Source: an uncultured Acidobacteriaceae bacterium
Lineage (GTDB): Bacteria > Acidobacteriota > Terriglobia > Terriglobales > Acidobacteriaceae
Reading direction: 5' to 3'
DNA: 64,000 nucleotides
Assembly (NCBI GenBank): GCA_963713645.1
Contig: CAVQMQ010000008.1
Coordinates: 6,473-70,472, forward strand
The notes beneath the pieces were generated by a model. That model saw only the letters and a program-made list of their open reading frames with translations. It did not search any database and was not told where the DNA came from. This document shows positions 13,960 through 56,741 of this stretch, in pieces (position 1 is the stretch's first letter; each line of letters starts with the position of its first letter). The position numbers and the translations under genes were made by a program.

Positions 13960-14019
13960 GCAAAGACGGGATTTTTTGGTGCCCCGATGGAATTGCCGAG
14001 ACTAGGGAGACGAGCTGAA

Positions 14020-38843: not shown

Positions 38844-41800
38844 ATGATTCGCGCACTGATTGATTTTGCACTCAAGAATAGAGCGCTGGTGTTGGCGGGA
38901 ACGCTGGTGCTGACCGTATGGGGAGTGATTGCCTTTCGCGGGCTGCCGATCGAGGCCTATCCGGACGTCGCCAATAACTATGTACAGGTGATTACGCAGT
39001 GGCCGGGCCGTAGCGCGGAAGAGATTGAGCGCCAGGTTACGGTGCCAGTTGAGATTCAGATGGCAGGTATGCCGCATCTGGTCCACCTGCGATCGACAAC
39101 GCTGGCCGGCATCTCCAGCCTCATGCTCATCTTTGACGATGAGTCGACAAGCGACATCAATCGCGAGCATGTGCTTGAGCGGTTGAGCCAGGTAAGCCTG
39201 CCGGCCAATCTGGTTCCGCAGATGGGGACGGATTGGAGTCCAGTCGGACAGATCTATTGGTACACGCTTGAGAGCACTAACCCGTCCTACGACGTGATGG
39301 AGTTGAAATCTCTTGAAGATTGGGAATTGGAGAAATCCTTCAAAGGCGTCAAGGGAGTAGTGGACGTTTCCAGCTTCGGCGGGCCAACCAAGGAATACCA
39401 GATCAGATTGGACCCGGAGAAGCTCGTATCTTATGGTCTATCTATTGGCCAGGTAGAGCAGCAGTTAGCAAATAACAATACAAACGGCGGCGGAAGCTTT
39501 ATTGAGCAGGGCTCACAGCAGATCAACGTTCAGTCGCTTGGACTGTATTCCAGCGTGCAGGATATTGAAGATACAGTTATCAAAACACAGAGCGGCGCGG
39601 CCATCACTGTTAAGGATATTGCCACGGTGACGCAAGGGGCCAAGATCCGGTTGGGGCAGATCGGCAAGGCGACTCACCGCGAAGATGGCGTAATTGTGGA
39701 TAATCCGGATACCGTTGAGGGGATTGTTCTGCTGCAGAAGGGCGACGATTCCGATCCAGTTTTGCAGGGAATCCATAAGGAAACAGACGCGCTGAACAAC
39801 GGAATCCTTCCCAAAGGCGTCAAGGTGGTTCCATTCCTGGATCGCTCCAAATTGGTGGCCTATACGGTCGAAACAGTCGAGCATAATCTGACGGAAGGAA
39901 TGATTCTAGTCGCGATCATTCTTTTTCTCTTCCTAGGCAACGTACGTGGCGCAATTATAGTTACTCTTACTATTCCTTTCGCGTTGATGTTTGCATCCAT
40001 CTGCCTGGACCTCAGCCATATTCCTGCCAATTTGCTTTCATTGGGAGCGCTGGATTTCGGGATGCTGGTTGATGGATCGGTCGTGATGATCGAAAACATG
40101 GTGCGGCATCTTGCGAATAAAGAAGACCAATCCGCTCCGGCGGAGAAGATTGCACGGGCCGCGCGCGAGGTAATGAAGCCGGTCTTCTTCGCTCGTGGAA
40201 TTATTATCACTTCTTATCTGCCGATTTTCACCTTGAAAGCCGTGGAGGGGCGGCTCTTCAAGCCGATGGCGTGGACAGTTACGTTTGCGCTGATCGGCGC
40301 ACTGGTCTTTGCAATCATTATTGCCCCGGTACTGGCAAGCATCTTTTTCCGCAAAGGAGCGAAGGAGTGGAACAACCCGATTATGCTCTGGCTGATCCGT
40401 CAATATAGCGTCGCGGTCCGTGCAACCATTGAAAACCGCAAAACTACTTTGGGCATCGCCGCGGCGCTTTTTCTCATTGCAGTTTATCTGACGTTTGGCG
40501 GTCCCATTGGGTCGGAGTTTCTTCCCCATCTTGACGAGGGGTCCATCTGGGTGCGTGGCACGCTGCCGCCTAGCGAAGGGCCAACACCAAGTGTTGATTT
40601 CACGAACAAGGCTAGGATTGTCATGGCGTCGTTTCCCGAGGTAACTCAGGTCGTGAGCCAGACCGGGCGTCCCGATGATGGTACTGATACCGCAGGATTC
40701 TTCAATACCGAGTATTTTGTTGACCTGAAACCGAAGAAAGAGTGGCGGCCTGTCTTCAGGCAGGATAAGGACGCACTTATCGCCGCTATCGACACACAGC
40801 TCTCAAAATTCCCTGGAGTGATATGGAATTACTCTCAACCGATTTCTGACAATATGGAGGAAGCGGTTTCAGGTGTCAAGGGTGAGCTTGCGGTCAAGCT
40901 ATACGGGGACGATCTACGCACTCTTGAAAAAAAAGCCGATGAGATTAAGGAGCAGATGCAGGTTGTCAACGGTGTCGAGGACCTGGGCATCTTCCGCATT
41001 GTCGGGCAGCCAAATCTGAATTTACAAGTTGATCGCGACGCGGCCAAACGCTGGGGAATCAACGTATCGGATATTCAGGATGCGGTGCAGACTGCTGTCG
41101 GTGCGAACGCAGTTACGCAAGTACAGCAGGGCGAGGCTCGCTTCGATGTTACGCTGCGCTATCAGCAGCAGTATCGCGATACCCGCGAGGCAATTGAAAA
41201 TGTTCGTCTGCTTGCCCCTTCGGGCGAGCGTGTTTCTCTGAGTCAGGTTACTAAGATCAGCACAGACGATGGAGCCGAGCAGATCAACCGCGAAGTCGGA
41301 CAGCGCTATATCGCAATCAAATATTCGGTGCGTGGACGCGATCTGGGATCGACCGTGGAAGAAGCCATCGCCAAGGTGACCAAGAATGTTCAGTTACCAC
41401 CGGGATACCACTTGGAATGGGCCGGCGAGTATGAGAGCCAGAAGCGCGCCAATGCTCGCATGGAGATTGTGGTGCCGGTAACAGTGATTAGTATTTTTCT
41501 CATCCTGTATACCATGTTCCGTTCGTATAAGTGGGCGGCGCTCATTCTGATCTCAGTCATTCTGTCTTCTATCGGAGGCCCGTTGGCCTTGTTTATCACG
41601 CATACCAATTTTTCGGTCTCGTCGGCTGTCGGCTTCCTTGCACTGTTTGGCGTCTCGGTGCAAACCGGCGTCATCATGATCGAATTCATCAACCAACTGC
41701 GGGCCGGCGGCTACGCGATTGAAGGCGCTGCTATTCGCGGTGCTGTTCTAAGGCTTCGCCCCATTATGATGACCATGTTAGTTGCGACTCTGGGCCTGCT

Positions 41801-41978
41801 GCCGGCAGCGCTGTCGCATGCCATCGGCTCTGACTCTCAGCGGCCGTTTGCCATCGTGATTGTCGGCGGCTTGCTTGCCAATCTGGTGATCGGAATCTTT
41901 TTGCTGCCAACGCTGTACGTATGGTTTGCCAGCGATACCGACAAGCTGCCAGAACCGGAAGCGAACTTTGAAGGCTAA
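38844..41978 (+). CDS. CusA/CzcA-family heavy-metal efflux RND permease
   Basis: LPIEAYPD, GALDFGMLVDGSVVMIEN, FKPMA, RLRPIMMT, GSDSQRPFA; 1044 aa. Confidence 0.93.
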   Translation: MIRALIDFALKNRALVLAGTLVLTVWGVIAFRGLPIEAYPDVANNYVQVITQWPGRSAEEIERQVTVPVEIQMAGMPHLVHLRSTTLAGISSLMLIFDDESTSDINREHVLERLSQVSLPANLVPQMGTDWSPVGQIYWYTLESTNPSYDVMELKSLEDWELEKSFKGVKGVVDVSSFGGPTKEYQIRLDPEKLVSYGLSIGQVEQQLANNNTNGGGSFIEQGSQQINVQSLGLYSSVQDIEDTVIKTQSGAAITVKDIATVTQGAKIRLGQIGKATHREDGVIVDNPDTVEGIVLLQKGDDSDPVLQGIHKETDALNNGILPKGVKVVPFLDRSKLVAYTVETVEHNLTEGMILVAIILFLFLGNVRGAIIVTLTIPFALMFASICLDLSHIPANLLSLGALDFGMLVDGSVVMIENMVRHLANKEDQSAPAEKIARAAREVMKPVFFARGIIITSYLPIFTLKAVEGRLFKPMAWTVTFALIGALVFAIIIAPVLASIFFRKGAKEWNNPIMLWLIRQYSVAVRATIENRKTTLGIAAALFLIAVYLTFGGPIGSEFLPHLDEGSIWVRGTLPPSEGPTPSVDFTNKARIVMASFPEVTQVVSQTGRPDDGTDTAGFFNTEYFVDLKPKKEWRPVFRQDKDALIAAIDTQLSKFPGVIWNYSQPISDNMEEAVSGVKGELAVKLYGDDLRTLEKKADEIKEQMQVVNGVEDLGIFRIVGQPNLNLQVDRDAAKRWGINVSDIQDAVQTAVGANAVTQVQQGEARFDVTLRYQQQYRDTREAIENVRLLAPSGERVSLSQVTKISTDDGAEQINREVGQRYIAIKYSVRGRDLGSTVEEAIAKVTKNVQLPPGYHLEWAGEYESQKRANARMEIVVPVTVISIFLILYTMFRSYKWAALILISVILSSIGGPLALFITHTNFSVSSAVGFLALFGVSVQTGVIMIEFINQLRAGGYAIEGAAIRGAVLRLRPIMMTMLVATLGLLPAALSHAIGSDSQRPFAIVIVGGLLANLVIGIFLLPTLYVWFASDTDKLPEPEANFEG

Positions 41979-42140: not shown

Positions 42141-42719
42141 CTACTTTGCGCCAGCCAGGTTACCCACAAGTGTTAGATCAATATCGACCACCTTGGCGAC
42201 TTTCAAGATGAAGATGCTTGGGTCTTTCAAGCCCCACTGAACGTAGGGAACCTGAAATTGTGTCTTCGCCGTGAGAGTTGCCCCGTCTATGTGAATCTGC
42301 ATGGGTACGGTCAGGTCATGCGGTGTGCCGTGCAGCGTAAATACGCCGGTGACCTGGATCGTTGAGTCGCCCGAGGCGGCGACAGTTCCCGTATAGCTTT
42401 TGGGCATGAAGGAGACCTCGGCGAATTTGGCCACTTCCAGAACGTCTGAGTTCATCTTCTTGTCGCGGCTTGGTTCGCCGCTGTTTCCGCTGCCGGCGGC
42501 GACGACGATGGAGCCGGAGATTGTCTGTGCGCCGCGGTCAAAATCAATTGATCCGGTTTGCACGTGGAAGGTTCCGTCGACGTGATGGCCGCTGCCGCCC
42601 AGCGCAAAGGCAACTTTGCTTGGGTCAGGATTAACGGTGAAGGTTTGATGCTGAGCAAACGCAACCGGGGCGAGGATCAGCGGGAGCGCGAGGAAGAGAG
42701 GGTTTGCAATAGTCTTCAT
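42141..42719 (-). CDS. YceI-family (polyisoprenoid-binding) periplasmic protein
   Basis: Signal peptide; SKVAF...HHVDGTF...SRDKKM..DVLE...FTLHGTPH...FQVPYVQWGL. Confidence 0.88.
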   Translation of the reverse strand: MKTIANPLFLALPLILAPVAFAQHQTFTVNPDPSKVAFALGGSGHHVDGTFHVQTGSIDFDRGAQTISGSIVVAAGSGNSGEPSRDKKMNSDVLEVAKFAEVSFMPKSYTGTVAASGDSTIQVTGVFTLHGTPHDLTVPMQIHIDGATLTAKTQFQVPYVQWGLKDPSIFILKVAKVVDIDLTLVGNLAGAK

Positions 42720-42742
42720 AGTCTGTCTCCTAAATGATGGTG

Positions 42743-44641
42743 TTATCGGTTTTGAATCGGCTGTGCGATTTGTTGCGACAACCAAAGGGCAATGGATGAA
42801 ATATCCTGATCAGAAAGATATTCATGGCCGGGCATATCGGTTCCGGGGACGCCGAATTTTGCAATTTGAGCCAGACGCGCAACTCGATCTACAACTATTC
42901 CTGAAGGCGTCAGGTAGTAGAAAGGTCCAACGGCAAGATCGGGAGGCAGCTGTTTGAAGCTGGATTTCCATGCGAGGCGCGTGTGTCCGTTGGCGCTGTG
43001 GCATGTTGAGCAATGACGCTGAAAGAGCTGTTCGCCGTCTATCGGATTGGCTTGTGCGATCGCAGCGGCAGACGGACGCCAAAGCAACTCGGCACTCTGA
43101 TGCTCCTCGGCTCCGCTGGTTTTGAGGCTCATCAGATAAGCGACAAGATCATCGCCGCGCTGGTTCTGAAAGAGAAACGCATACGAAGGCATGATGGAAG
43201 CGCCGCTGACCTCGGGCGGGTTGTAGAAATGTGCCTTCAGCCACAACTCTGAGCGACGACTGCCAACTTCGGCAAGGTCTGGACCCTGGCGGCGGTTGCC
43301 GATGAGGGGAGGCTTTTGCTGATGGAGTTGCTGGAAGGATTCAACTGGACCCCAGAGCAAGACATCCGGCGAGTTAGGACGTACATACTGGGTGTGGCAG
43401 TTGATGCAGCCCTCAGAGATATAGATTTTCCTTCCGTGTTCGAGTTGCGAGAGCGGAGTTGAAATGCGCGTGGCGTTGACGATGCGATCCAATGAGAGGG
43501 ATGCAATAAGGATCGCTACGGTGAGCAGAAGTTCGCGCTTGCGCCGCAGAAGAAAGCGGAACAGTACCGTTAGCAGGATGACCGCTCCAGCTGCGAGCAC
43601 GAAGAGCGGAGGGATATACCCAAGGTGCTGGCCCATGCCAATGCCGAGCGCGGAACCTGCCCAACCAGCAATCGCGTAGAGCCATCCGGCTTGGCGGCCG
43701 CGCTCCGCGGTAGATGTGGCCGGGCTGAGCAGGGCGGGATAAGCGACCAGCGCCACGGAGTAAAGCGAGACACCGACGGGATAGAAGATAGAGGCTAGAA
43801 CTATGCATCGGGGCGCAAGCAGCAAAAGACACGCGGAACCAAGCACAACGAATGCGGCGGAGAGGATAACTGAGAGACTTCTGCGACGCAGCAGCCATAC
43901 GCTGATCAGAGCCGCGACGAGATGCAGAAGAGCATTGGCGCTGAGGTGCAGTGATCCCTGCCATGTTCCGGCCTTGAGCGATGGCGTGTTCTGAATAATA
44001 AAGAAGGCTGCGGAATCGAGCCATACCAGCGCAGTGAAGCAAGCTAGTACAGAGAAAAACGGTAGTGCGGGCTTCGACGCAACACGCAATTCGTTTAGCG
44101 GCACCAATGCAGGGAACAGCGTTGCTCCGACTCCGGCGAGGCACAACAAGCCTGCTACTACACTTTGCATTTCGGCGGAGGCGATAAAGAATGGAGGCAG
44201 ATTGCAGACAAGGTAGCCAACGCCTGTTCCCAGACCGACGAGGAGCAGGGGATTCCGGTTACCTGTCCATTGGCGCAGGTGAGTGACAAGGGTGACTGTA
44301 AGCAGGCCGAGCCCTGCGCCGATGAGAAACGAGACTGCGATGATTGTGAAAAGCCCGAGAGGTAACAGCGAACTGAACGCAGCTACGCTGCAGATGATGA
44401 GTCCGATGCGAAGACGCAGATTCGGCGCGGGCAAGAAATTCAGCCGCGGCGCAAGAAGGCTGAGAAGAATGCCGCCGCTGGCCATTGCGGCCATGACGGA
44501 ATTTAAGTGATTGCCGCTAATGCCAAGGGTTGCCAACCGCTTGAGAAAAGCGAACTGCGCGAAGATCAGGAAATAGACATAGGTGATTGCGACAAGGCAC
44601 GCGCCCTGCCATCCGGAGCGGCTGTGTCTAGTGTGCGACAT
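42743..44641 (-). CDS. fusion of an MFS-like membrane domain, a cbb3 subunit II (CcoO)-like monoheme domain and a second cytochrome c domain
   Basis: About 12 hydrophobic segments, then GRKIYISEGCINCHTQYVRP...GNRRQGPDL...HFYNP...IMPSY, then CSTCH...MPG. Confidence 0.82.
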   Translation of the reverse strand: MSHTRHSRSGWQGACLVAITYVYFLIFAQFAFLKRLATLGISGNHLNSVMAAMASGGILLSLLAPRLNFLPAPNLRLRIGLIICSVAAFSSLLPLGLFTIIAVSFLIGAGLGLLTVTLVTHLRQWTGNRNPLLLVGLGTGVGYLVCNLPPFFIASAEMQSVVAGLLCLAGVGATLFPALVPLNELRVASKPALPFFSVLACFTALVWLDSAAFFIIQNTPSLKAGTWQGSLHLSANALLHLVAALISVWLLRRRSLSVILSAAFVVLGSACLLLLAPRCIVLASIFYPVGVSLYSVALVAYPALLSPATSTAERGRQAGWLYAIAGWAGSALGIGMGQHLGYIPPLFVLAAGAVILLTVLFRFLLRRKRELLLTVAILIASLSLDRIVNATRISTPLSQLEHGRKIYISEGCINCHTQYVRPNSPDVLLWGPVESFQQLHQQKPPLIGNRRQGPDLAEVGSRRSELWLKAHFYNPPEVSGASIMPSYAFLFQNQRGDDLVAYLMSLKTSGAEEHQSAELLWRPSAAAIAQANPIDGEQLFQRHCSTCHSANGHTRLAWKSSFKQLPPDLAVGPFYYLTPSGIVVDRVARLAQIAKFGVPGTDMPGHEYLSDQDISSIALWLSQQIAQPIQNR

Positions 44642-45038
44642 TGCGTAGCCAGCCTTTGCGCAGACCAATTGCCTGAATGATGACGGATGCACCGTCCGTA
44701 AGGGCGACTGTAGCCCAGCCAGCCTCAAGCCGATGGCTGAGAATCTCAGCAATAACCAGAGAAGCCACGCTGGCGCGGGTGATCGCAGTCAACCCCCATA
44801 TCATTTCAATGCGGCAGTGGCCGGCGCCGCGCAGCGTCAGAAGAGCGCCATAAAAGCAGGCGAGCCCGACGGAGAGTACGAATGCTCCGATGAACGAGAG
44901 GAAGGGCAGCGCATCATCGGGAGCGTGCACGCGCATCAACGTCAACGTAAACGCCGGAGCGAGGATGAGCAGCGTTCCGGTCAATGTGTCCGAAAGGCCG
45001 ATGAGTAGCTGATAGCCAATGAGGATGGAACGGTTCAT
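44628..45038 (-). CDS. small multi-pass membrane protein (136 aa)
   Basis: About four hydrophobic segments; start and stop overlap both neighbours. Confidence 0.75.
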   Translation of the reverse strand: MNRSILIGYQLLIGLSDTLTGTLLILAPAFTLTLMRVHAPDDALPFLSFIGAFVLSVGLACFYGALLTLRGAGHCRIEMIWGLTAITRASVASLVIAEILSHRLEAGWATVALTDGASVIIQAIGLRKGWLRNVAH

Positions 45039-46366
45039 GCGGCCAATTCCTCCACGGCAATTGTGGATATTTTGTTTGGCTTGTGCAGGAGAGACGAGGC
45101 CTCGATGAGCCAGTCAAGGGACGAGGCCAGCATCACGACGCCAACTGCAAGGCGAAGGATGTAGATGGTGTCTCGCGCTGCTGTGGGAACAATGGTGAAG
45201 GCCGGGTCGCCGCCTTCGCGCCATCCGGCGATGAACATCAGCAGAACATAAGCCAGTACGCCAAGGTTCCAGCCGTAGAAGGATCGCTTGCTGGTGAAGA
45301 TCCTGCCGTCTTCGCCGAGAAGTTGGACTAATACGAGAATCAGCAGGCTGGTGACGAAGCCTGCCATCGCCAGCAGGGAATGGCCGACAAGACCGTCGGT
45401 GAATTTGAAGTGATCGAGTACGCCGGGAAGAAAGAATATCCATCCAGTAACAACCAAAGCCGCCCACCAGAGATACGTTGCAATGCGCCAGCGGCGCGTG
45501 TTTTCGTTCCAGGAGAATGCCGCGTAATAAAGAGGGATGAGCGGCACCCAGACGAGCAGGCTGCCGAGAGAGAGAAACTGCGCGGGGCTGTGATGGCTGC
45601 TATCGGCTCGGCCAAGTGCGAAGCATAGAAGAAACTCCGCGAGCAGCGTAATCCACGCGATTACAACCGCTTTGGAGCGGCGTGCAGTTCGCCGGGTCAG
45701 GCCGTAGGGGAGCATCAAGAGAATCGCGACAATGATCAGCGAAGACTCGAGTTGACTTGCGCCGGTGGGGCCGCCGGTATCGGGATTGATCGCCGGGTAG
45801 TAGGACGGACCTGACGCGAGATATATCAGGAATGGAACAGTCAGTAGAAAAGCGAGGGCAAAGATTTTTGCAGATCGTGCGGGGAGGGTTGTGTTGGTTG
45901 CGAACTTCGAGCCACAAACAAATGCGAGGGCGAGTAGCAGCCACAGAGCGAGCATCGCCAGCGGAAAGAAGATGCGCGCGTAGCCGGACCAATCGAGAAA
46001 CAGCTTGCCACTGGAATGGCCGGAGAGCCAGGAGTACGCGCCTGCGCCGAGCGCCGCGGACCACACCCACAGAACCGGCCTGCACCATTGCGCGAAGGGT
46101 TCGCGATCTGCTCCAAAGACCTTGAGAAGGAATGCCGCCAAGGGAAGACTCACCCATCCGTAGAGTTCCAGATTCATGTGAACCATGATCCAGCGCCCGT
46201 AGGTCCATTCGCCTAGGAATGGATTCAGTGCGGGAAAGAGCAGAAGAATTGCGATCAGCATCCCAATCGCATTCGAAACGACAAGCCAGAGCAGGCTATG
46301 CCACACTGCACTGATGACACCGTTGGGCGCATTCTGCGATGAGAGATTCGGCTCAGCCGGATGCAT
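45035..46366 (-). CDS. degenerate heme-copper-oxidase subunit I (CcoN)-like membrane protein
   Basis: WTYGRWIMVHMN (cf. CcoN TFGRLRPLHTN), SSHHS, KFTDGLVGHSL (cf. YTDWTIGHVH); GGAGG RBS before ATG 46366. Confidence 0.7.
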   Translation of the reverse strand: MHPAEPNLSSQNAPNGVISAVWHSLLWLVVSNAIGMLIAILLLFPALNPFLGEWTYGRWIMVHMNLELYGWVSLPLAAFLLKVFGADREPFAQWCRPVLWVWSAALGAGAYSWLSGHSSGKLFLDWSGYARIFFPLAMLALWLLLALAFVCGSKFATNTTLPARSAKIFALAFLLTVPFLIYLASGPSYYPAINPDTGGPTGASQLESSLIIVAILLMLPYGLTRRTARRSKAVVIAWITLLAEFLLCFALGRADSSHHSPAQFLSLGSLLVWVPLIPLYYAAFSWNENTRRWRIATYLWWAALVVTGWIFFLPGVLDHFKFTDGLVGHSLLAMAGFVTSLLILVLVQLLGEDGRIFTSKRSFYGWNLGVLAYVLLMFIAGWREGGDPAFTIVPTAARDTIYILRLAVGVVMLASSLDWLIEASSLLHKPNKISTIAVEELAA

Positions 46367-47054
46367 GAATCCTCCCATCGTGCATTTCGAGCAAACGGTC
46401 ACAACGTCTGGCAAGGTTGCGATCGTGCGTGGCCATCAAGAGAGTCACCTGCTCGGTGGCAACGATCTCCAGCAATAACTCAAAGACCGCGCCGCTGGAT
46501 TTCTCGTCGAGTGAACCGGTCGGCTCATCGGCCAGCAGAATTTTTGGACTGTTCATAAGCGCGCGGCAGAGCGCGGTGCGTTGGCGCTCACCGCCGGAGA
46601 GCTTCTGAATGCGATGGCCGAGGCGATGAGTCAGGCCGGTGCGCTCGGTGAGTTGATGCAGGCGCTGCTGTGCCAGATCACGATCTGTTCCGGCCGCGAC
46701 GGAGGGAATCAAGCAATTCTCTTCTAGCGTGAGATCGGGAATCAGGTTGTGCAACTGAAAGACGAAGCCGACCTCGTGGCGCAGAAGGCGCAGCAGGTTT
46801 CGGCGGCTGTTAACCTCGATGTTATTGACGGCGACGTGCCCGCGATCCGGCGAGTCCAGACCGCCGAACAAGTGCAACAGCGTGCTTTTTCCGCAGCCGG
46901 AGGGGCCGCAGAGGGCAACCGTCTGGCCGGCGAAGGCCTCGAAATCAACGCCCTTGAGCACTGCAATCGCACCGTCGTCGTAGCTCTTCCATACATCCTT
47001 GGAGCGGAGGACGATGCGCGGCTGATTGTTGAGTTGTTCCTTCACAGAATTCAT
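46353..47054 (-). CDS. ABC transporter ATP-binding protein (LolD/MacB type)
   Basis: GPSGCGKST, VFQLHNL, LSGGERQR, LLADEPTG, ATHD. Confidence 0.93.
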   Translation of the reverse strand: MNSVKEQLNNQPRIVLRSKDVWKSYDDGAIAVLKGVDFEAFAGQTVALCGPSGCGKSTLLHLFGGLDSPDRGHVAVNNIEVNSRRNLLRLLRHEVGFVFQLHNLIPDLTLEENCLIPSVAAGTDRDLAQQRLHQLTERTGLTHRLGHRIQKLSGGERQRTALCRALMNSPKILLADEPTGSLDEKSSGAVFELLLEIVATEQVTLLMATHDRNLARRCDRLLEMHDGRIHASG

Positions 47055-48169
47055 TCGAATCGCAGCGCCTCCACCGCTCGGACGCGCATGGCATAGGCTG
47101 CAGGGTAGAGTGCTCCGGCGATGCCGGTGAGCAGCGCCAGCAAGATCACGATCAGCATGACCACTGGTTGAATCGACACATCTACATAGCCGTGAAGAGC
47201 CGGAATCAGCTTGAGCGTGAAGAGCAGACAGGTTCCTGTCACAAGGCCTAACACTGCGCCCAGCAAAGACACGACTGCGGACTCACCGAAGATCATGGTG
47301 GCGATCTGCGCGTTCGAGAAGCCATTGACGCGCAGGATGGCGATCTCGCGAATACGCGTGAAGACCGACATGATCATCGTGTTGGCGACGCCGAGGCCGC
47401 CCAGAACCAAGCCGCATCCGCCGACTGCCCAGGCCGTGGCCTTGAGGATTCTGAATTGCGAATAGGAACGGCTGAACTCCGCGTCTTGGAGGCCGATGAG
47501 GTCGGAGAACTTCGCTGTCACCATCGCCTTGAAAGCATCCGCGTTGTCTTTGTTGCGCAGCTTGACGGTGATGACAGAGGAGGTTCCCTCTTTGTGAAAG
47601 AAGCTCTGCGCTGAACTGAGCGGCATGAAGACGCCGCCATCTTCAAAGCCATTTGCGGTGTGCAGAATCCCGATGACATGAAAGACGCCGTGGCCAATGG
47701 GCACGTGATCATCGAGCTTTGTCGAGAGGAAACCTGCGGCGCGTTCTCCGAGGACAACATCGTCTGCGTGCTGTCCGAACCGGAGCCGATCACCGGCGGT
47801 CCAAGTGGCTTTGCGAATGCGCGCATCGGCAGCGGTGACGCCAAAGCAGGTGATGATGGGATGACCGGCGCTGGAGACGATGCCGAAGAGAACCGGATCA
47901 GCATGAGCGACCATTGGCCATGAGGCGATCTGCTCGACCGCCGCAGCGGGGACATTGCTGAAAAAAAGATCAGAGACATTGCGCTCGAAGACAATGATCT
48001 GGCTATCGCTCGATAGGATTCCGGAGAACATGCCGATAGCGCCTTGCAGGATGGTGACCACCGTTAGCATGGCCGCGACACTGAAGGCGATGCCCGCAAT
48101 GCTGATAAAAGACCGGATGCGATGGCGGCGCAGATTCGTCACAATCAACTTGAGAAAGATCACGAACAC
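47051..48169 (-). CDS. ABC transporter permease (LolE/FtsX/MacB type)
   Basis: RSFISIAGIAFSVAAM, periplasmic domain, NTMIMSVFTRIREIAILR, LYPAAYA...VEALRFE. Confidence 0.9.
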   Translation of the reverse strand: MFVIFLKLIVTNLRRHRIRSFISIAGIAFSVAAMLTVVTILQGAIGMFSGILSSDSQIIVFERNVSDLFFSNVPAAAVEQIASWPMVAHADPVLFGIVSSAGHPIITCFGVTAADARIRKATWTAGDRLRFGQHADDVVLGERAAGFLSTKLDDHVPIGHGVFHVIGILHTANGFEDGGVFMPLSSAQSFFHKEGTSSVITVKLRNKDNADAFKAMVTAKFSDLIGLQDAEFSRSYSQFRILKATAWAVGGCGLVLGGLGVANTMIMSVFTRIREIAILRVNGFSNAQIATMIFGESAVVSLLGAVLGLVTGTCLLFTLKLIPALHGYVDVSIQPVVMLIVILLALLTGIAGALYPAAYAMRVRAVEALRFE

Positions 48170-49092
48170 TCTCCAACGGGAATTGCAGAGAAGTGCCCGG
48201 TGACCCGGACAAGCTCCTCTTCCAGTTCGCTGCGCAGTTTTTCAAGAAACGTCAGGTGGGGCCTGGTTTTCAGAATCCGGAAAAGCGTTCTGTCGCCGAT
48301 GCGAATGAAGCGCGTGAGACGTTGGATCGCATCGGGAATTCCCATTGCCGATGCGGCGTTGGGACGGTCGAGCAGCAGGTCGCGGGCTACTGTTTTCCCT
48401 GCTTGAGCCGCGTTGCCGAGCACATCCTTGAGGTCATCGACCATTTGGTAGCTGAGGCCCCAGCAGTGTGCAATCCGCTCGAGCATTTGCAACTCGCGCG
48501 CAGATGCGCCGCCGATCAGAGCAGGGAGGACCAGCGTAAGACGGATCAATGAAACCGTTTTGCCGCGCGCGATGGTTTCTGTCGTCTGGCGATTGTGAGG
48601 CAGGGTTGCGTAGTGGAGGTCGAGGCTCTGTCCGTTGAGCAGTCCTTCGACGCCGAGACGCTGTTCGATATATTCAAGGGCGCGTGATTGGATCTGCGGT
48701 GAAGCGCCGGAGACCGCGCGCCAGCTCATTGCGTAGGCGCGATTGACGAGCGCAAGGGCTGCAAGAATTGCGCCGGCCTCGCCGTAGGCAAGATGCACGC
48801 ATGGGACTCCGCGGCGCTCGGTTGCATTGTCCATGCAGGGCAGATCATCGAAGAGAAGCGATGCAGTATGAAAATATTCGAGTGCGATGGCAAGGTCTTT
48901 GGCGGAGTCATGCTGGAGTCCGTATGCGGTTGCCATTTGATAGATCATACGCGGGCGGATCAGGCTTCCCGGGTTGTCCAGCACATGACGCAGGGCCTCT
49001 TCCAGATGCGGATCGAGTGCTGCCGGTAGCGGCAGACCCGCACTGAATGCTTGCGAAAATGGCTTTGAACTCACTGTGTTATTCAATTGCAT
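48160..49092 (-). CDS. polyprenyl (trans-isoprenyl) diphosphate synthase
   Basis: FARM FDDLPCMD...RRG, GQSLD, KT, SARM YQMVDDLKD. Confidence 0.9.
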   Translation of the reverse strand: MQLNNTVSSKPFSQAFSAGLPLPAALDPHLEEALRHVLDNPGSLIRPRMIYQMATAYGLQHDSAKDLAIALEYFHTASLLFDDLPCMDNATERRGVPCVHLAYGEAGAILAALALVNRAYAMSWRAVSGASPQIQSRALEYIEQRLGVEGLLNGQSLDLHYATLPHNRQTTETIARGKTVSLIRLTLVLPALIGGASARELQMLERIAHCWGLSYQMVDDLKDVLGNAAQAGKTVARDLLLDRPNAASAMGIPDAIQRLTRFIRIGDRTLFRILKTRPHLTFLEKLRSELEEELVRVTGHFSAIPVGECS

Positions 49093-49427
49093 TGCCGACC
49101 CTCCGGTTCCTACGATGAACTTCACGTGGGCTTCCTGCAACTTTCAAAATAGTTCAGATACCGCGGCTCGCGATGAGGAGCCTGTTTCTAGTCTTCAGAG
49201 TTGAGACGAAAAAGTACAGCCCCGGGGAGCAGTTTTCGCATATCATTCAATGACGATTTGTTCATCTGCGAGATGGGCTCCCATAATTTGGGCCAAGAGA
49301 CAATTTGCCGACAAGAGTATGACAATCCCGTCATTTCGATGCGATCGGGGTGACTGAATGCGATTTGGTTGACTCTGTTGCGATGAGATGAAATCCAGGA
49401 CAGGAGCCAATGCACTAATATCCATTC

Positions 49428-50105
49428 ATGCGGCTCTTGCTGGTCGAGGACGAGATCGATATACAAAGCTTCCTGCGCGCCTCGCTGACGGAGGCGGGAT
49501 ACCTGGTGGAAGTAGCGGCGGATGGGCGAAGCGCTGAACACCTGGCTACGAAAGGGCAATTCGACATACTCATTGTCGATCTCGGCCTCCCTGACCAGGA
49601 TGGTATCAGCCTGATTCTTCGCTTGCGCCAGCTTGGAGTCCACGCGCCAGTACTGATTCTGTCCGCGCGCCGCAGCGTGGATGACAGAGTGCGCGGCCTG
49701 GAGCAGGGCGGTGACGATTACCTGACCAAGCCCTTTGCACTTGCCGAGTTGCTGGCCCGCTTGCGCAATCTGCTCAAGCGCAACAGCCCATCCGCGCAGG
49801 AGGCAACCAAGCTGCGTGTATTGGATCTCGAACTCGATCTTCTGCGCCGCGAGGCGACGCGGTCAGGGCAACTGTTACAGCTTACACAGCAGGAGTTTGT
49901 GCTTCTGGAATATCTCTGCCGCAATACGGGCCGCGTGGTTACTCGCTCCATGATTCTTGAACAGGTGTGGGGGATGCGCATCCAGCCGGACACAAATGTC
50001 GTGGATGTGCATATCTATCGCTTGCGCGGCAAGGTGGATGGCGAGGGGCAGCGGCCGCTGATCCGTACGCTGCGCGGAGTGGGCTATGTCCTCAAAGACG
50101 GCTAA
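49428..50105 (+). CDS. OmpR-family response regulator (CusR-like)
   Basis: LLVEDE, DLGLPD, DDYLTKPF, NVVDVHIYRLRGK, IRTLRGVGY. Confidence 0.93.
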   Translation: MRLLLVEDEIDIQSFLRASLTEAGYLVEVAADGRSAEHLATKGQFDILIVDLGLPDQDGISLILRLRQLGVHAPVLILSARRSVDDRVRGLEQGGDDYLTKPFALAELLARLRNLLKRNSPSAQEATKLRVLDLELDLLRREATRSGQLLQLTQQEFVLLEYLCRNTGRVVTRSMILEQVWGMRIQPDTNVVDVHIYRLRGKVDGEGQRPLIRTLRGVGYVLKDG

Positions 50106-51513
50106 GCCGGTAGTGCGCAGCGCCGCGTGGCGTATCTCGTTGTGGGCCACGCTGGCTTTTGCCTGCGCAACCATGTTGGTTTTCATTTTGCTGCACCGCT
50201 TCGTCGCCAACGATATTCAGCGCCGCAGCGATGCCTGGCTTTCGGGAGAAGTTGAAGTTCTGGGCGATGTAGCCGAGCGCACACCGAAGGACGCTCTGTA
50301 TGGAAGGGTTGTCGGGGAAGTGGCCGAACTCGCCGGCAAGGAAGTTCCCAACAAGGAGCCGGGAAGTGGCAATGCCAATGACTCGGTGTTCTTTCTCCAG
50401 ATTGGCGGCGATGGCTCGCGAAAGTTGTGGGTTGGAGCCGGTGACGGACTGAACAACCTCAAGGCAATTCAGGCGGCGCATGTTCTACCGGAGCGTCCAA
50501 CGGATCTTGCGGTGAGCGGGTTTTCCATTCCGTTTCGAGTGGCGTCAATCCAAATGGACGACGGAAGCCTGATCTATCTTGGACTCTCTGAGCGGGACGA
50601 GTTGAGGGTACTGAGGAATCTTCGTCTTCGCTTTCTGTTTTGGTGGCTGTTGATTGTTTTCTTCGGATTCGGAATTGTCTTTTTCACCACGCGCCGCATG
50701 TTGGGTCATGTTCGCAGAATTACTGAAGCGGCTTCGGGTATCGGCCATTCTGACCTTACAGCCAGGGTGCCGACTACAGCGCGCAGAGATGAAGTAGCGC
50801 AGCTTGCGCTGACTCTCAATCACATGCTGGACCGGATTGAGAGCTCGATGCATCAGTTGCATACGATTACCGACGCACTGGCACACGATCTACGCAGCCC
50901 CTTGACGGCAATCCGCGGAAAGCTGGAGATGTCATTGTCGGCAGCCTCCGAGCGCAGCTCATCCGAGCAGATTGCCTCAGCCATCGAAGAGCTGGACAGG
51001 CTTGCCGACTTTCTGAACAAATCATTGGATGTTGCCGAGGCCAAGGCCGATGCGCTACGACTGAACCGGAGCAAAGTGGATCTGGATGAGCTGCTCAGAG
51101 TGATGAGCGACCTTTACGGGCCATCCATGTCAGAAAAGGGCGTAGAGGTAAGGATCGAGAGCACTGGCCCGTTGTTCGTCGAGGCTGACGCGGCGCTGGT
51201 TCACCGCATGATTGCAAATCTCTTCGACAACGAACTAAAGCACCTGATAGCTGCCGGGACGGTCACAATCCGCTTAAGCACTCAGGAGGGTTTTGCGTGT
51301 TTAGCGCTCACCGACGATGGCCGAGGCTTTGAGCCTAAGGTGCTTGCGCATCTGTTTGAACGGCGCATCAAGGGGCGAGAGTCGAGTGGTCATGGACTGG
51401 GCCTGGCCTTCGTGGATGCAGTTGTGCACGCTCACGGGGGCAGTGTCTCGGCGTGCAATCGCGCCCAGGGCGGTGCGCAAATTGAGGTCAGATTGCCGGC
51501 CATCTCTGCATAA
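50086..51513 (+). CDS. HAMP sensor histidine kinase (CusS-like)
   Basis: Two TMs, HAMP, LAHDLRSPL, NLFDN, DDGRG, GHGLGLA. Confidence 0.92.
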   Translation: MSSKTAKPVVRSAAWRISLWATLAFACATMLVFILLHRFVANDIQRRSDAWLSGEVEVLGDVAERTPKDALYGRVVGEVAELAGKEVPNKEPGSGNANDSVFFLQIGGDGSRKLWVGAGDGLNNLKAIQAAHVLPERPTDLAVSGFSIPFRVASIQMDDGSLIYLGLSERDELRVLRNLRLRFLFWWLLIVFFGFGIVFFTTRRMLGHVRRITEAASGIGHSDLTARVPTTARRDEVAQLALTLNHMLDRIESSMHQLHTITDALAHDLRSPLTAIRGKLEMSLSAASERSSSEQIASAIEELDRLADFLNKSLDVAEAKADALRLNRSKVDLDELLRVMSDLYGPSMSEKGVEVRIESTGPLFVEADAALVHRMIANLFDNELKHLIAAGTVTIRLSTQEGFACLALTDDGRGFEPKVLAHLFERRIKGRESSGHGLGLAFVDAVVHAHGGSVSACNRAQGGAQIEVRLPAISA

Positions 51514-56500: not shown

Positions 56501-56741
56501 CTCGATTGGCCAGTGTACTTATTTTGTTGCGCCTCCCGACGGCCGCATCTACCCAGGCCGCCCGGTGAGCGCTGGCGAGGCCAAAGAGCGGCGGCTGGAG
56601 CGCTTTCAAGCCAGCTTGGGCGCGCCGGTCCAAATGGAAACGCCCGAGGAAGAAACCAATTCGATCTTTCCTTCTACGCTTGACCTGCGTCTGCCGCCTG
56701 CCGGAAAATCAGGGGCAAGAACCCCGGGGACCGAGTCGTGA
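53532..56741 (+). CDS. transglutaminase domain fused to DUF2126-type putative amidoligase
   Basis: Triad GSCRDS / DLHAW / GLDPT; LTMGAEPTFV, VTPDPGVLEVN, GGGCHIVIGG, HPALSYLFSG, ELRAFEM. Confidence 0.9.
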   Translation: MGIQVALSHRTHYRYKKAISLGPQVIQLRPALHCRTPILSYSLEVTPANHHLYWQLDPHHNRRARVLFPEKTSEFAVDVNLVADISPSNPFDFLLEPGFEEFPFKYSAETARDLQVYLSVDTPGPLLQAYLEQFRGIRDGSINFLLHVNRKVQADIGYVTRLEPGVQSCEETLQARTGSCRDSSWLLVEMLRNLGIAARFVSGYLIQLASAEENAPKADSADLHAWAEAYLPGAGWIGLDPTSGMAASEGHIPLVCMPTAVQAAPIEGTVELADTAFSYSLTVRRLNEAAEPGRPFTEAAWQRVRELAHGIDRDLAVNDVRLTMGAEPTFVGVETPESPQWNIDALGDEKRTQGMALIRGLREQMAPGALLHFGQGKWYPGEPLPRWALSCYWRTDGVPVWKDVRLIANEEQDDKFGVAEALKFTTALTRRLQVSSENILPAFEPGTDSTEPAGYIVPIRRRQPEGQIGWSSQLWFPRPERLELLAGDSPIGYRISTDSIPWVAPDELEYVYEAAPLDDHAVLPLIRPVHMELFAAEPKPDPLPAVARDAETAPELIRPSLCVQAREGRLHVFLPYAPVLADYLDLVAAVEDTAKHLKMPVWVEGYAPASDPRLRNFSVTPDPGVLEVNLPPASSWDELEEINRVLDEETRRNRLTTEKLAYDGSEMATGGGCHIVIGGATLFDSPILRRPDLLRSMLIFWQNHPALSYLFSGMYVGPTSQCPRVDEARLDALYELEVAFRHLPQGDCPAYVVDGLFRNLLADVTGNTHRAEFCVDKLFAPKGFGLQLGLLELRAFEMAPHVRMTLLQMLLIRGLVCMFWKTPFDGKLIRWGTELHDRFMLPDAAKRDLFDVLGQLRRSSIDFEEDWFAAHLEFRFPKIGSIFVEGVELELRHALEPWNVLPEETVSGGTVRSVDSSLERIQVKLTGQTRESRYVVACNGRRVPLHPTPENGVEVAGVRFRARRLSETLHPTIPVHAPLVFNVIDRFKGRSIGQCTYFVAPPDGRIYPGRPVSAGEAKERRLERFQASLGAPVQMETPEEETNSIFPSTLDLRLPPAGKSGARTPGTES

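What the first reader, a model, noticed from the sequence alone, without database searches (positions are those of the whole stretch)
42141..49092. Unusual operon: polyprenyl synthase + LolDE-type ABC exporter + degenerate cbb3-like subunits + YceI
Seen: seven co-oriented genes; six have overlapping start/stop codons and YceI follows 23 nt later. A two-component system is divergent. Known: YceI proteins bind polyisoprenoids/quinones, LolDE/MacB-type ABCs move lipidic cargo out of the inner membrane, and CcoN/CcoO are redox membrane subunits. Inference: a pathway that makes a prenyl compound, redox-modifies it on a repurposed oxidase scaffold, exports it and carries it in the periplasm. It could be a quinone-like shuttle or envelope lipid and could feed the nearby cytochrome system. 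I know of no characterisation of this combination.
Basis: partly seen in the sequence, partly recalled or inferred. Interest (0 to 1): 0.75.

Follow-up and report, generated by a model that had tools for sequence, protein, structure and literature searches.

The report
Copper-site-less cbb3-like haem complex, isoprenoid-lipid operon
This operon, conserved in hundreds of soil and freshwater bacteria, joins a relative of the cbb3 respiratory oxidase that cannot form the normal copper site to genes that make, extract and carry an isoprenoid lipid, and it is the very locus that papers on Acidobacteria have been calling a "high-affinity cbb3 oxidase".

Summary
Seven minus-strand genes (42141-49092) are translationally coupled and a two-component system is divergent.

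The genes encode:
- a third, non-housekeeping short-chain prenyl-diphosphate synthase;
- a MacB/FtsX-type ABC pair;
- a 12-helix remote homologue of CcoN;
- a 4-helix protein;
- an MFS-CcoO-cytochrome c fusion;
- a secreted YceI.

The synthase, CcoN-like protein, 4-helix protein and MFS-CcoO fusion stay together across Acidobacteriota, Verrucomicrobiota, Lentisphaeria and Bdellovibrionales. The lipid exporter alternates between the ABC pair and an HpnN-like MMPL pump. Some lineages fuse the synthase to an isochorismate synthase.

The CcoN-like protein keeps the helix-II His and the haem-b3 His. It lacks the helix-VI CuB His in all 76 members aligned. In Acidobacteriaceae, including this window, it also lacks the second haem-b His.

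Published qPCR primers place the "cbb3 oxidases" of Acidobacterium capsulatum and Terriglobus roseus inside this cluster. Those genes were barely expressed, and in A. capsulatum significantly repressed, at low O2.

Best reading: an envelope isoprenoid-lipid or quinone redox and export module, not an O2 reductase. The chemistry is unproven. The suggested link to the neighbouring cytochrome cluster is not supported.

The parts
50086..51513 (+). Sensor histidine kinase (475 aa): 2 TM, periplasmic domain, HAMP, HisKA, HATPase
   Evidence: The best NCBIfam hit is heavy-metal sensor kinase TIGR01386 at 196.8 bits, below its 292.55 cut-off. The periplasmic domain has no conserved His/Met/Cys cluster in 75 orthologues. 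It is divergent from the operon in nearly all Acidobacteriaceae loci.
49428..50105 (+). OmpR-type response regulator (225 aa), CusR/CopR/HprR-like
   Evidence: TIGR01387 scores 238.3 bits, below its 279.2 cut-off. The protein is 70-95% identical across Acidobacteriaceae loci.
49319..49334 (-). Operator-like box 1, ATGACGGGATTGTCAT, about 94-109 nt upstream of the regulator ATG
   Evidence: ATGA(A/C)N6GTCAT, allowing up to one mismatch, occurs in 61 of 62 Acidobacteriaceae RR-IDS intergenic regions. There are 96 boxes against 0.4 expected from shuffles.
49250..49265 (-). Operator-like box 2, ATGAACAAATCGTCAT, about 158-173 nt upstream of the synthase ATG
   Evidence: It has the same 16-bp palindromic layout as the E. 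coli CusR/HprR box CATTACAAAATTGTAATG quoted in PMC9302797.
48160..49092 (-). Dedicated short-chain trans-prenyl-diphosphate synthase (310 aa from ATG 49092)
   Evidence: PF00348 at 134 bits. It falls below every NCBIfam equivalog cut-off (FPPsyn 158 against 275). DDLPCMD, RRG, DDLKD and GK..D are 99-100% conserved in 134 cluster-linked orthologues, and Ala/Ser sit at positions -5/-4 before the first Asp-rich motif. It is the third PF00348 gene of the genome.
47051..48169 (-). MacB/FtsX-type (type VII ABC) permease with a periplasmic core domain (372 aa)
   Evidence: PF12704 + PF02687. LolCE scores 76 bits against a 362 cut-off. There is a single permease gene and no adaptor gene.
46353..47054 (-). 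ABC ATPase (233 aa), LolD/MacB-like
   Evidence: PF00005. LolD TIGR02211 scores 212.7 bits, below its 307.75 cut-off.
45035..46366 (-). CcoN-like 12-TM haem protein (443 aa) that lacks a complete CuB site
   Evidence: There is no Pfam, NCBIfam or PDB hit for the single sequence. The family profile hits CcoN over its full length (9g6b_A 2.5e-8, 3mk7_A 1.8e-7). The AF2 model has pLDDT 91.8 and its top folds are CcoN at TM 0.68. H63 and H329 are invariant. The helix-VI His is Ala/Pro in 76/76 and position 331 is Leu here.
44628..45038 (-). p136: 4-TM subunit of unknown fold family (the 'cco gene of unknown function' of the literature)
   Evidence: It is conserved between the CcoN-like gene and the MFS-CcoO gene in all variants. 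It is naturally fused to the CcoN-like protein in L109, L122 and L133. Only a weak DUF4345 signal appears, in 7 of 43 members.
42743..44641 (-). Fusion protein (632 aa): 12-TM MFS fold + 13th TM + CcoO-type monohaem c domain + CcoP-like monohaem c domain
   Evidence: PF02433 at 98.9 bits plus PF00034/PF13442. The family profile hits CcoO at 2.7e-34 and the second haem domain of CcoP at 9.5e-12. The AF2 model has pLDDT 84.9. Its N-terminal domain matches MFS transporters (NorA, SV2A, VMAT2; E about 2e-6). Both CxxCH motifs and both Met ligands are invariant in 57 sequences. The fusion is in one frame in most loci of all phyla.
42141..42719 (-). Secreted YceI-family lipid-binding protein (192 aa, signal peptide ...VAFA/QH)
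   Evidence: PF04264 at 72.6 bits. It is the last gene in Acidobacteriaceae and the first gene in the MMPL-type variant.

Best explanation
The operon encodes an envelope module built around a cbb3-derived haem complex that is not a canonical O2 reductase.

Shown:
- The CcoN-like protein, p136 and the MFS-CcoO-cytochrome c fusion belong together. They are always adjacent and are sometimes fused into one chain.
- They are always accompanied by a catalytically intact, dedicated short-chain prenyl-diphosphate synthase.
- They are usually accompanied by a lipid exporter (a MacB-type ABC pair here, an HpnN-like MMPL pump elsewhere), by a periplasmic YceI and by a two-component system.

Inferred mechanism:
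1. The synthase makes a C15-C20 prenyl diphosphate, probably C20. This ends up in a membrane lipid. In lineages with a fused isochorismate synthase it is plausibly a short-tailed naphthoquinone.
2. The MFS domain presents or flips that lipid next to the haem-b3 pocket of the CcoN-like subunit.
3. Electrons pass between the periplasmic cytochrome c pool and the pocket through the two c haems, and so reduce or oxidise the lipid.
4. The FtsX/ABC extractor pulls the lipid from the outer leaflet and hands it to YceI for transit through the periplasm.
5. The divergent CusR/HprR-like system switches the operon on through two conserved boxes, in response to an unknown envelope signal.
For: - Synteny. 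All seven genes plus the divergent two-component system are present in practically all 80 Acidobacteriaceae loci. The core IDS - CcoN-like - p136 - MFS-CcoO appears in about 60 loci of other lineages, out of 489 found.
- Exporter swap. FtsX+ABC occupies the slot in one variant and MBL + HpnN/BstA-like MMPL in 28 loci of the other.
- Fusions. CcoN-like+p136 is fused in L109, L122 and L133. The synthase is fused to an isochorismate synthase in L096, and six more loci carry that enzyme next door.
- Synthase. Its catalytic motifs are conserved, and it is additional to the housekeeping synthases.
- Not a canonical oxidase. The helix-VI CuB His is absent in 76/76. The second haem-b His is absent in 87/87 Acidobacteriaceae members.
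- Expression. The A. capsulatum and T. roseus orthologues (identified) run at about 1-20 TPM. The A. capsulatum genes are significantly down-regulated at low O2 (PMC8407424).
- Regulation. Conserved operator boxes are present.
- Precedent. A YceI-type lipocalin working with a membrane cytochrome in lipid chemistry has been described (BcnA-LcoA, PMC9113575).
Against: - No prenyltransferase, cyclase or other enzyme that would turn the prenyl diphosphate into a defined lipid is conserved in the cluster.
- The isochorismate synthase is present in only 7 of about 61 non-Acidobacteriaceae loci.
- YceI is missing from most Opitutaceae clusters.
- A semi-conserved His-His pair (88% and 72%) sits at the periplasmic end of helix VII. 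Acidobacteriaceae have also gained Gln205 and Glu207 on helix VI. A non-canonical metal centre acting on a small molecule therefore cannot be excluded.
- No cofactor, ligand or activity has been measured.
- The low expression was seen only in oxygen-shift experiments.
Confidence: 0.5

Rival explanations
1. It is still a terminal reductase for a small molecule (O2, NO, H2O2 or similar) with a non-canonical catalytic centre. The isoprenoid genes would only supply a bound cofactor, such as a tightly bound short-chain quinone or a prenylated haem, or a lipid needed for assembly.
For: - The full HCO subunit-I fold is closest to CcoN.
- The haem-b3 His and the helix-II His are invariant.
- A complete c-haem entry path, CcoO plus a CcoP-like domain, is conserved.
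- A His-His pair is kept in most members, and Acidobacteriaceae have a new Gln/Glu pair on helix VI.
- The literature treats it as an oxidase (PMC5900883, PMC8407424).
Against: - The helix-VI CuB His is missing in every member.
- The His-His pair is lost in 12-28% of members.
- The low-spin haem loses one axial His in the whole Acidobacteriaceae clade.
- The genes were not induced in either organism, and were significantly repressed in A. capsulatum, at nanomolar O2 while both organisms respired with caa3 or bd oxidases.
- This reading does not explain why two unrelated lipid exporters and YceI travel with the cluster.
Confidence: 0.2
2. It is an envelope oxidative-stress defence, comparable to the BcnA (YceI-type lipocalin) - LcoA (cytochrome b561) system. 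An isoprenoid antioxidant is made and delivered to the periplasm or outer membrane. The haem complex uses respiratory electrons to quench lipid radicals or regenerate the antioxidant. A CusR/HprR-type system that senses oxidants or copper would control it.
For: - YceI is paired with a membrane haem protein, with a precedent in PMC9113575.
- The regulator is closest to the CusR/CopR/HprR group.
- The conserved boxes have the same 16-bp palindromic layout as the E. coli CusR/HprR box, which controls the periplasmic repair system MsrPQ.
- Expression falls when O2 falls.
Against: - No cytochrome b561 is present.
- YceI is absent from most Opitutaceae clusters.
- The sensor's periplasmic domain shows no conserved redox- or metal-binding residues.
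- The box is not found upstream of the clusters in other phyla.
- No stress data exist.
Confidence: 0.2
3. The genes are neighbours by accident or share only transcription. In this reading a housekeeping prenyl synthase, a Lol-like transporter, a decaying cbb3 remnant and YceI have no common function.
For: No enzyme links the synthase product to the haem complex. The genes are barely expressed in the two cultured species tested.
Against: - The same order with overlapping stops and starts holds across 55-83% protein identity in 80 loci, and the core holds across phyla.
- All ORFs are intact and the catalytic or ligand residues are invariant.
- Gene fusions join the parts.
- Housekeeping synthases exist elsewhere in the genome.
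Confidence: 0.03

Closest known systems
cbb3-type cytochrome c oxidase core CcoN/CcoO/CcoP (C-family haem-copper oxidase; PDB 3MK7, 8SMR, 9G6B)
   Same: - The subunit-I fold has 12 TM helices and is closest to CcoN (TM 0.68).
- The helix-II His and the haem-b3 His are conserved.
- The partner carries a genuine CcoO domain (E about 1e-34) and a CcoP-like second c domain.
   Different: - No helix-VI CuB His in any member, and no identifiable His-Tyr cross-link.
- The second haem-b His is lost in Acidobacteriaceae.
- PF00115 and the NCBIfam CcoN models do not recognise it.
- CcoO is fused behind a 12-TM MFS domain.
- There is an extra 4-TM subunit.
- It is always linked to a prenyl synthase and lipid-handling genes.
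- It is not induced by low O2.
BcnA-LcoA lipocalin / cytochrome b561 lipid-peroxyl detoxification system (PMC9113575)
   Same: A secreted YceI-family lipid binder is genetically linked to a membrane b-haem protein, and the proposed action is on envelope lipids.
   Different: - The haem protein here is HCO-derived and fed by c haems, not a b561.
- The cluster adds a synthase, an exporter and an MFS domain.
- No phenotype is known.
HpnN/BstA (MMPL, HAE3) hopanoid/sterol exporters and MacB/LolCDE type VII ABC extractors
   Same: The cluster carries either an HpnN/BstA-like pump (316 bits to TIGR03480, below cut-off) or a MacB/FtsX-type pair. Both kinds move lipidic cargo out of the inner membrane.
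   Different: All score below the equivalog cut-offs. The ABC variant has a single permease gene with no LolC/LolE pair and no MacA adaptor. The cargo is unknown.
Dedicated prenyl synthase for a specialised quinone pool in the Listeria extracellular-electron-transfer locus (DmkA/DmkB; recalled from memory, not checked here)
   Same: An extra polyprenyl synthase is encoded inside a respiratory-type gene cluster. In some lineages here the synthase is fused to an isochorismate synthase, which catalyses the first menaquinone step.
   Different: No UbiA/MenA-type prenyltransferase is in the cluster. The isochorismate synthase is present in only 7 loci and not in this window.

Membership tests
cbb3-type oxidase subunit CcoN (C-family HCO) | 12-TM HCO subunit-I fold | tested here: met
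   The AF2 model has pLDDT 91.8 and pTM 0.91. The top Foldseek hits are 3mk7, 6xkw and 8smr CcoN at TM 0.68 and E 1.7e-9. The family profile hits CcoN over its full length at 2.5e-8.
cbb3-type oxidase subunit CcoN (C-family HCO) | Recognised by curated family models (PF00115 COX1; NCBIfam CcoN) | tested here: not met
   There is no Pfam or NCBIfam hit. A PF00115 scan of the whole genome finds only the aa3-type gene on contig 3.
cbb3-type oxidase subunit CcoN (C-family HCO) | Three His ligands of CuB (helix VI His; helix VII His-His) and the cross-linked Tyr | tested here: not met
   The helix-VI position is Pro here and Ala/Pro/Thr/Ser in 76/76. A His-His pair (258/259) is present here but only 88% and 72% conserved, and its equivalence to H257/H258 is uncertain. 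No Tyr could be assigned.
cbb3-type oxidase subunit CcoN (C-family HCO) | Bis-His low-spin haem b (helix II His + second helix X His) and the His of high-spin haem b3 | tested here: not met
   H63 and H329 are present and invariant. Position 331 is Leu here and Leu/Phe/Ile in 87/87 Acidobacteriaceae members, whereas it is His in 61/61 members from other lineages.
cbb3-type oxidase subunit CcoN (C-family HCO) | CcoO monohaem partner | tested here: met
   PF02433 scores 98.9 bits against a 29.6 cut-off. The profile hits CcoO 8smr_F at 2.7e-34. The CxxCH motif and the Met ligand are invariant. The domain is, however, fused to an MFS domain.
cbb3-type oxidase subunit CcoN (C-family HCO) | Physiological role as a high-affinity O2 reductase (induced or used at low O2) | not testable with these tools
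   In the literature, the orthologues ACP_0885-0888 and Terro_4248-4250 run at about 1-20 TPM and were not induced at nanomolar O2. The fall was significant for the A. capsulatum genes (PMC8407424). Orthology was verified here through the published primers.
trans-isoprenyl diphosphate synthase (PF00348) | Two Asp-rich motifs and the RRG / GK..D substrate-binding residues | tested here: met
   PF00348 scores 134.3 bits. DDLPCMD, RRG, DDLKD and GK..D are 99-100% conserved in 134 orthologues.
FPP synthase IspA / GGPP synthase CrtE equivalogs | Score above the NCBIfam cut-off | tested here: not met
   FPPsyn scores 158.3 against 275 and CrtE scores 122.1 against 460. The genome's real FPP synthase scores 317.6.
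LolCDE lipoprotein-release transporter | LolD and LolC/LolE equivalog scores; two paralogous permeases | tested here: not met
   LolD scores 212.7 against 307.75 and lolCE scores 76.3 against 362.45. There is one permease gene only.
MacB/FtsX type VII ABC transporters | FtsX 4-TM permease with a MacB periplasmic core domain, plus an ABC ATPase | tested here: met
   PF12704 at 74.1 bits, PF02687 at 63 bits and PF00005 at 122.2 bits.
YceI family | YceI domain, secreted | tested here: met
   PF04264 scores 72.6 against 23.7. An N-terminal signal-like sequence, MKTIANPLFLALPLILAPVAFA, is present. Ligand binding was not tested.
Major facilitator superfamily | 12-TM MFS fold | tested here: met
   Foldseek matches NorA, SV2A and VMAT2 at E 2e-6 to 1e-4, with TMt up to 0.72. 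There is no Pfam MFS hit, and the CcoA-type Met motifs are not among the invariant residues.
CusRS/CopRS/HprRS heavy-metal or oxidant two-component systems | NCBIfam subfamily cut-offs; metal-binding sensor residues | tested here: not met
   TIGR01387 scores 238.3 against 279.2 and TIGR01386 scores 196.8 against 292.55. The periplasmic domain has no conserved His/Met/Cys. The operator layout is similar to the CusR/HprR box.

The most novel reading that the evidence does not exclude
The haem-copper-oxidase scaffold, known so far to reduce only O2 and NO, has been converted here into a copper-site-less enzyme. Its substrate would be a membrane isoprenoid or short-tailed quinone made by its own operon. 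An MFS domain fused to CcoO would feed that lipid to the haem-b3 pocket. Cytochrome c would supply or take the electrons. A lipid extractor plus YceI would then carry the product through the periplasm, as a mobile redox carrier or a protective lipid for the outer envelope.
Probability: 0.2. Interest if true: 0.85.

Novelty: new variant of a known kind. Interest (0 to 1): 0.72.

Why it matters
1. Genome surveys and physiological studies count this locus as a high-affinity cbb3 oxidase and use it to call Acidobacteria microaerobes (PMC5900883, PMC8407424). The ligand analysis and the published expression data together say that this inference is unsafe. They also explain the puzzling silence of the "cbb3" genes at nanomolar O2.
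2. It defines a widespread family (489 loci in one-genome-per-species collections) of haem-copper-oxidase relatives that lack a complete CuB site. These are hard-wired to isoprenoid synthesis and lipid export, an association not described for any oxidase.
3. It offers a tractable route to the long-unclear function of YceI proteins. It could also show how lipids or quinones cross the periplasm in abundant soil phyla, since A. capsulatum, T. roseus and Edaphobacter modestus are cultured and carry the cluster.

Tried and rejected
- **Single-sequence searches.** Searches of the CcoN-like protein against Pfam, NCBIfam and PDB found nothing. Only a family profile and a fold search revealed CcoN.
- **Second FixO hit.** A second FixO hit in the genome (contig 28) was checked as a possible paralogous cluster. 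It is a multihaem cytochrome of an unrelated Rieske/cytochrome b operon.
- **p136.** It has no PDB relative and only a weak DUF4345 signal.
- **Neighbour clustering.** Clustering of all neighbouring ORFs was noisy because of antisense ORFs. It still showed no further widely conserved partner, and in particular no UbiA/MenA prenyltransferase or haem O synthase.
- **Link to the adjacent cytochrome conduit.** A functional link to that cluster or to the AcrB pump was rejected, because they are shared only with L001.
- **Copper sensing.** It could not be supported from the sensor sequence.
- **Operator box elsewhere.** The Acidobacteriaceae operator box is absent upstream of the clusters in other phyla.
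- **Promoter and terminator scans.** Sigma-70 promoter and intrinsic terminator scans gave nothing useful.
- **Primer scans.** The A. capsulatum primer was not found in genome contigs but was found through the genome search.
- **Literature.** Searches for the gene combination or for the locus tags found no functional study.


Full report
**1. Observation.**

The region holds seven co-oriented minus-strand ORFs. Inspection of the junctions gives these starts:

| Gene | Start | Junction with the gene before it |
|---|---|---|
| IDS | ATG 49092 | first gene |
| FtsX permease | GTG 48169 or 48163 | overlaps the IDS stop at 48160 |
| ABC ATPase | ATG 47054 | ATGA overlap |
| CcoN-like gene | ATG 46366 | 14-nt overlap |
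| p136 | ATG 45038 | ATGA overlap |
| MFS-CcoO-c gene | ATG 44641 | 14-nt overlap |
| YceI | ATG 42719 | 23 nt after the preceding stop, with AGGAGA upstream |

A response regulator (49428-50105) and a histidine kinase (50086-51513) are divergent.

**2. What the proteins are.**

Pfam and NCBIfam give the following:
- A polyprenyl synthase. PF00348 scores 134 bits. It is closest to the short-chain FPP/GGPP models but falls below every equivalog cut-off.
- A MacB/FtsX-type permease (PF12704 + PF02687) and an ABC ATPase. These are LolD/LolCE-like but far below the Lol cut-offs, and there is a single permease gene.
- A 669-aa ORF (632 aa from the likely start) with a FixO/CcoO domain (PF02433, 98.9 bits) and a further cytochrome c domain.
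- YceI (PF04264) with a signal-like N-terminus.
- No family at all for the 459/443-aa and 136-aa membrane proteins.

The organism is a Terracidiphilus-like Acidobacteriaceae (names of the hits).

**3. The 443-aa protein is a remote, ligand-poor CcoN.**

A single-sequence search of the PDB finds nothing. An exhaustive search of 1.84 billion cluster representatives finds only 354 clusters. The family is therefore small and distinct, and is not simply absorbed into CcoN.

A profile of 68 members matches CcoN of solved cbb3 oxidases over the full length (9g6b_A 2.5e-8, 3mk7_A 1.8e-7). An AlphaFold model built on 76 sequences is confident (pLDDT 91.8, pTM 0.91, 12 TM helices). Its best structural matches are CcoN (TM 0.68, E 1.7e-9), ahead of NO reductases and ba3 oxidases.

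Ligand accounting:
- The helix-II His (H63, equivalent to CcoN H60) is invariant.
- The first helix-X His (H329, the haem-b3 ligand) is invariant.
- The helix-VI CuB His is replaced by Ala/Pro/Thr/Ser in 76 of 76 sequences. It lies inside a new, highly conserved motif, YPPINPxSGG(A/P)TGxSLL.
- A His-His pair sits at the periplasmic end of helix VII (258/259, present in this window). It is kept in only 88% and 72% of members.
- The second helix-X His (CcoN H347, the other axial ligand of low-spin haem b) is His in 61/61 members from other lineages. It is Leu/Phe/Ile in 87/87 members of the Acidobacteriaceae set, and Leu in this window.
- The Acidobacteriaceae clade has also fixed Gln205 and Glu207 on helix VI, His319 and Met377.

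A canonical binuclear haem-copper centre therefore cannot form. In this clade even the low-spin haem site is altered. A PF00115 scan finds only one COX1-type (aa3-like) oxidase subunit I in the genome, and FixO occurs only in this cluster.

**4. The partner subunits.**

The profile of the 632-aa protein family hits CcoO at 2.7e-34 and the second haem domain of CcoP at 9.5e-12. Both CxxCH motifs and both Met ligands are invariant.

The N-terminal 390 residues fold confidently as a 12-TM MFS transporter. A 13th helix follows and puts the cytochrome domains in the periplasm. The Met-rich Cu motifs of the CcoA importer are not among the conserved residues. Instead a WLDSAAFxIIQ helix, His240, and several Tyr, Asn and Trp residues are invariant.

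p136 is a 4-TM protein. It has a few invariant polar residues (R88, D115, Q122), no solved relative, and only a weak DUF4345 signal.

**5. Comparative genomics.**

With the window protein as query, 123 loci were found and 80 kept. All are from Acidobacteriaceae-type genomes, including Edaphobacter modestus DSM 18101 and Granulicella. In practically every one of sufficient length the order is HK-RR (divergent), IDS, FtsX, ABC, CcoN-like, p136, MFS-CcoO, YceI. This holds at 55-83% identity of the CcoN-like protein.

With a profile of distant members, 489 loci were found. They come from Opitutaceae and other Verrucomicrobiota, Thermoanaerobaculia, Holophagae and other Acidobacteriota, Lentisphaeria and Bdellovibrionales. 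The invariant core is IDS - CcoN-like - p136 - MFS-CcoO fusion.

Three architectures exist:

| Variant | Lineages | Gene order |
|---|---|---|
| a | Thermoanaerobaculia, other Acidobacteriota, some Verrucomicrobiota and others | (RR/HK divergent) YceI - IDS - core - MBL-fold hydrolase - ~690-aa MMPL pump; no ABC genes |
| b | Opitutaceae | IDS - FtsX - ABC - core - RR - HK; mostly without YceI |
| c | Acidobacteriaceae | as in this window |

The MMPL pump is HpnN/BstA-like. It scores 316 bits to the HpnN model, with MMPL and sterol-sensing domains. Two unrelated families of lipid exporters therefore replace each other at the same locus. This is the strongest indirect evidence that a lipid leaves the inner membrane as part of the function.

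Further links:
- The CcoN-like protein and p136 are fused in L109, L122 and L133.
- A 1130-aa family member (P0157) matches the CcoN-like query over its first ~390 residues. Its length would fit an all-core fusion, but the C-terminal part was not examined.
- The MBL hydrolase is fused to the CcoO-c protein in L096 and L111.
- In seven loci an isochorismate synthase sits directly upstream (TIGR00543, 298-310 bits, above its 224.75 cut-off). In L096 it is fused to the IDS in one 812-aa protein.
- L088 also carries a MenG/UbiE-like methyltransferase.

No other gene is widely conserved next to the cluster. In particular there is no UbiA/MenA prenyltransferase or haem O synthase.

**6. The synthase.**

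In 134 cluster-linked orthologues the motifs DDLPCMD, RRG, DDLKD and GK..D are 99-100% conserved. Ala and Ser occupy positions -5/-4 before the first motif. By the established chain-length rule for short-chain synthases this points to C20 rather than C15. This is an inference.

The genome has two further PF00348 genes. One is a true FPP synthase (317.6 bits against a 275 cut-off). The other is a long-chain, octaprenyl-type synthase.

**7. Regulation.**

The regulator and kinase are closest to the CusR/CopR/HprR and heavy-metal sensor groups but fall below their cut-offs. The periplasmic sensor domain has no conserved His/Met/Cys, so copper sensing is not supported by sequence.

In 61 of 62 Acidobacteriaceae RR-IDS intergenic regions there are one or two copies of ATGA(A/C)N6GTCAT. 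That is 96 boxes against 0.4 in shuffles. In the window they lie at 49319-49334 and 49250-49265. The layout is the same 16-bp palindrome type as the E. coli CusR/HprR box CATTACAAAATTGTAATG (PMC9302797).

The box is not found upstream of the clusters in the other variants, whose two-component systems are only 25-45% identical. Consensus promoter and terminator scans were uninformative.

**8. Link to the literature.**

Eichorst et al. 2018 (PMC5900883) and Trojan et al. 2021 (PMC8407424) report 'cbb3-type high-affinity terminal oxidases' in Acidobacteria. [quoted passage not shown] The locus tags are ACP_0885/0887/0888 and Terro_4248-4250.

I located these operons through the published qPCR primers:
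- **A. capsulatum.** The primers match a 338-bp amplicon at G084:C1:1033311-1033648, on a 4.127-Mb single-contig genome. This lies inside a homologue of the window's CcoN-like protein (52% identity, motif GHSL). IDS, FtsX and ABC lie upstream, p136 and MFS-CcoO downstream, and YceI is divergent.
- **T. roseus.** The primers give a 283-bp amplicon in Terriglobus roseus DSM 18391 (NC_018014). This lies inside a 56%-identical homologue preceded by IDS, FtsX and ABC, with a divergent RR/HK.

The published 'acidobacterial cbb3 oxidase' is therefore this cluster. In those experiments the genes ran at about 1-20 TPM. The A. capsulatum genes fell a further 2-3.6 log2 units, significantly, when O2 dropped from 10 to 0.001 µM. 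The T. roseus genes stayed at about 0-12 TPM, with only marginal changes. Meanwhile caa3 and bd oxidases carried respiration. The authors themselves asked whether the enzyme 'has lost its function'.

No paper was found that notes the missing ligands or the isoprenoid and lipid-export context.

**9. Interpretation.**

Shown:
- The operon is a conserved, multi-phylum unit.
- The haem subunit derives from CcoN but lacks a complete CuB site.
- The c-haem entry path is intact.
- A dedicated active-looking prenyl synthase is obligatory.
- A lipid exporter of one of two kinds, and often YceI, accompany it.

Inferred: the complex exchanges electrons between the periplasmic cytochrome c pool and a membrane isoprenoid lipid or short-tailed quinone. 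The MFS domain presents this lipid. It is then extracted and carried by YceI.

The YceI-lipocalin/cytochrome b561 system BcnA-LcoA, which protects envelope lipids from peroxyl radicals (PMC9113575), is the nearest functional precedent. A stress-defence version of the model is a serious rival. A non-canonical small-molecule reductase is another serious rival. It would use the retained His-His pair and, in Acidobacteriaceae, the new Gln/Glu on helix VI.

That conduit, the AcrB pump and the other flanking genes are shared only with the closest relative, L001.

**10. Earlier notes of this scan.**

Notes on three other genomes (e1-1390895, e1-4391604, e1-5240650) and on this genome (e1-5265156, e1-5265157) reach compatible readings. 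They are AI notes and were not used as evidence. Everything above was derived here.

- the clade-wide His-to-Leu/Phe change of the low-spin haem ligand in Acidobacteriaceae;
- the operator boxes;
- the primer-based identification of the published A. capsulatum and T. roseus 'cbb3' loci;
- the IDS-isochorismate synthase fusion.

**11. Verdict.**

The cluster is a real, uncharacterised variant within the haem-copper-oxidase superfamily, embedded in an isoprenoid-lipid module, and it is currently mis-labelled in databases and papers. The mechanism remains hypothetical.

Noticed in passing
L087 (G000 contig 28: 4000-22000), ORFs 6808-15653 minus strand: An unrelated respiratory operon. It has an FeS/flavoprotein (660 aa), a Rieske protein, a split cytochrome b, a 688-aa multihaem cytochrome c with a FixO-like segment, a cytochrome c with a Big_1 domain, a cupredoxin-like protein and a 445-aa protein with no family.
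   Followed up: partly
window 53532-60099 (+): A DUF2126/transglutaminase (1069 aa), a circularly permuted ATP-grasp + Alpha-E protein (828 aa) and a second transglutaminase-like protein (292 aa) form a co-oriented trio. They are shared with L001 but are not part of the module.
   Followed up: no
window 38844-41978 (+): An AcrB-type RND pump (1044 aa) is convergent with yceI. No membrane-fusion or outer-membrane partner was examined. It is not conserved next to the module.
   Followed up: partly
L096:6894-9332 and L096:11708-14758; L111:12935-14533: Rosetta-stone fusions occur in Multivoradales and Thermoanaerobaculia MAGs. One joins the prenyl synthase to an isochorismate synthase (812 aa). 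The other joins the MFS-CcoO-cytochrome c protein to an MBL-fold hydrolase.
   Followed up: partly
L058, L075, L146: MAG bins labelled Rhodanobacteraceae, Lichenicola and Acetobacteraceae carry complete Acidobacteriaceae-type clusters at 57-61% identity. This points to mis-binning or horizontal transfer.
   Followed up: no
window 45035-46366, positions 205, 207, 319, 377 of the protein: Acidobacteriaceae-specific fixed residues (Gln205 and Glu207 on helix VI, His319, Met377) accompany the loss of the second helix-X His. This may be a remodelled cofactor site.
   Followed up: partly
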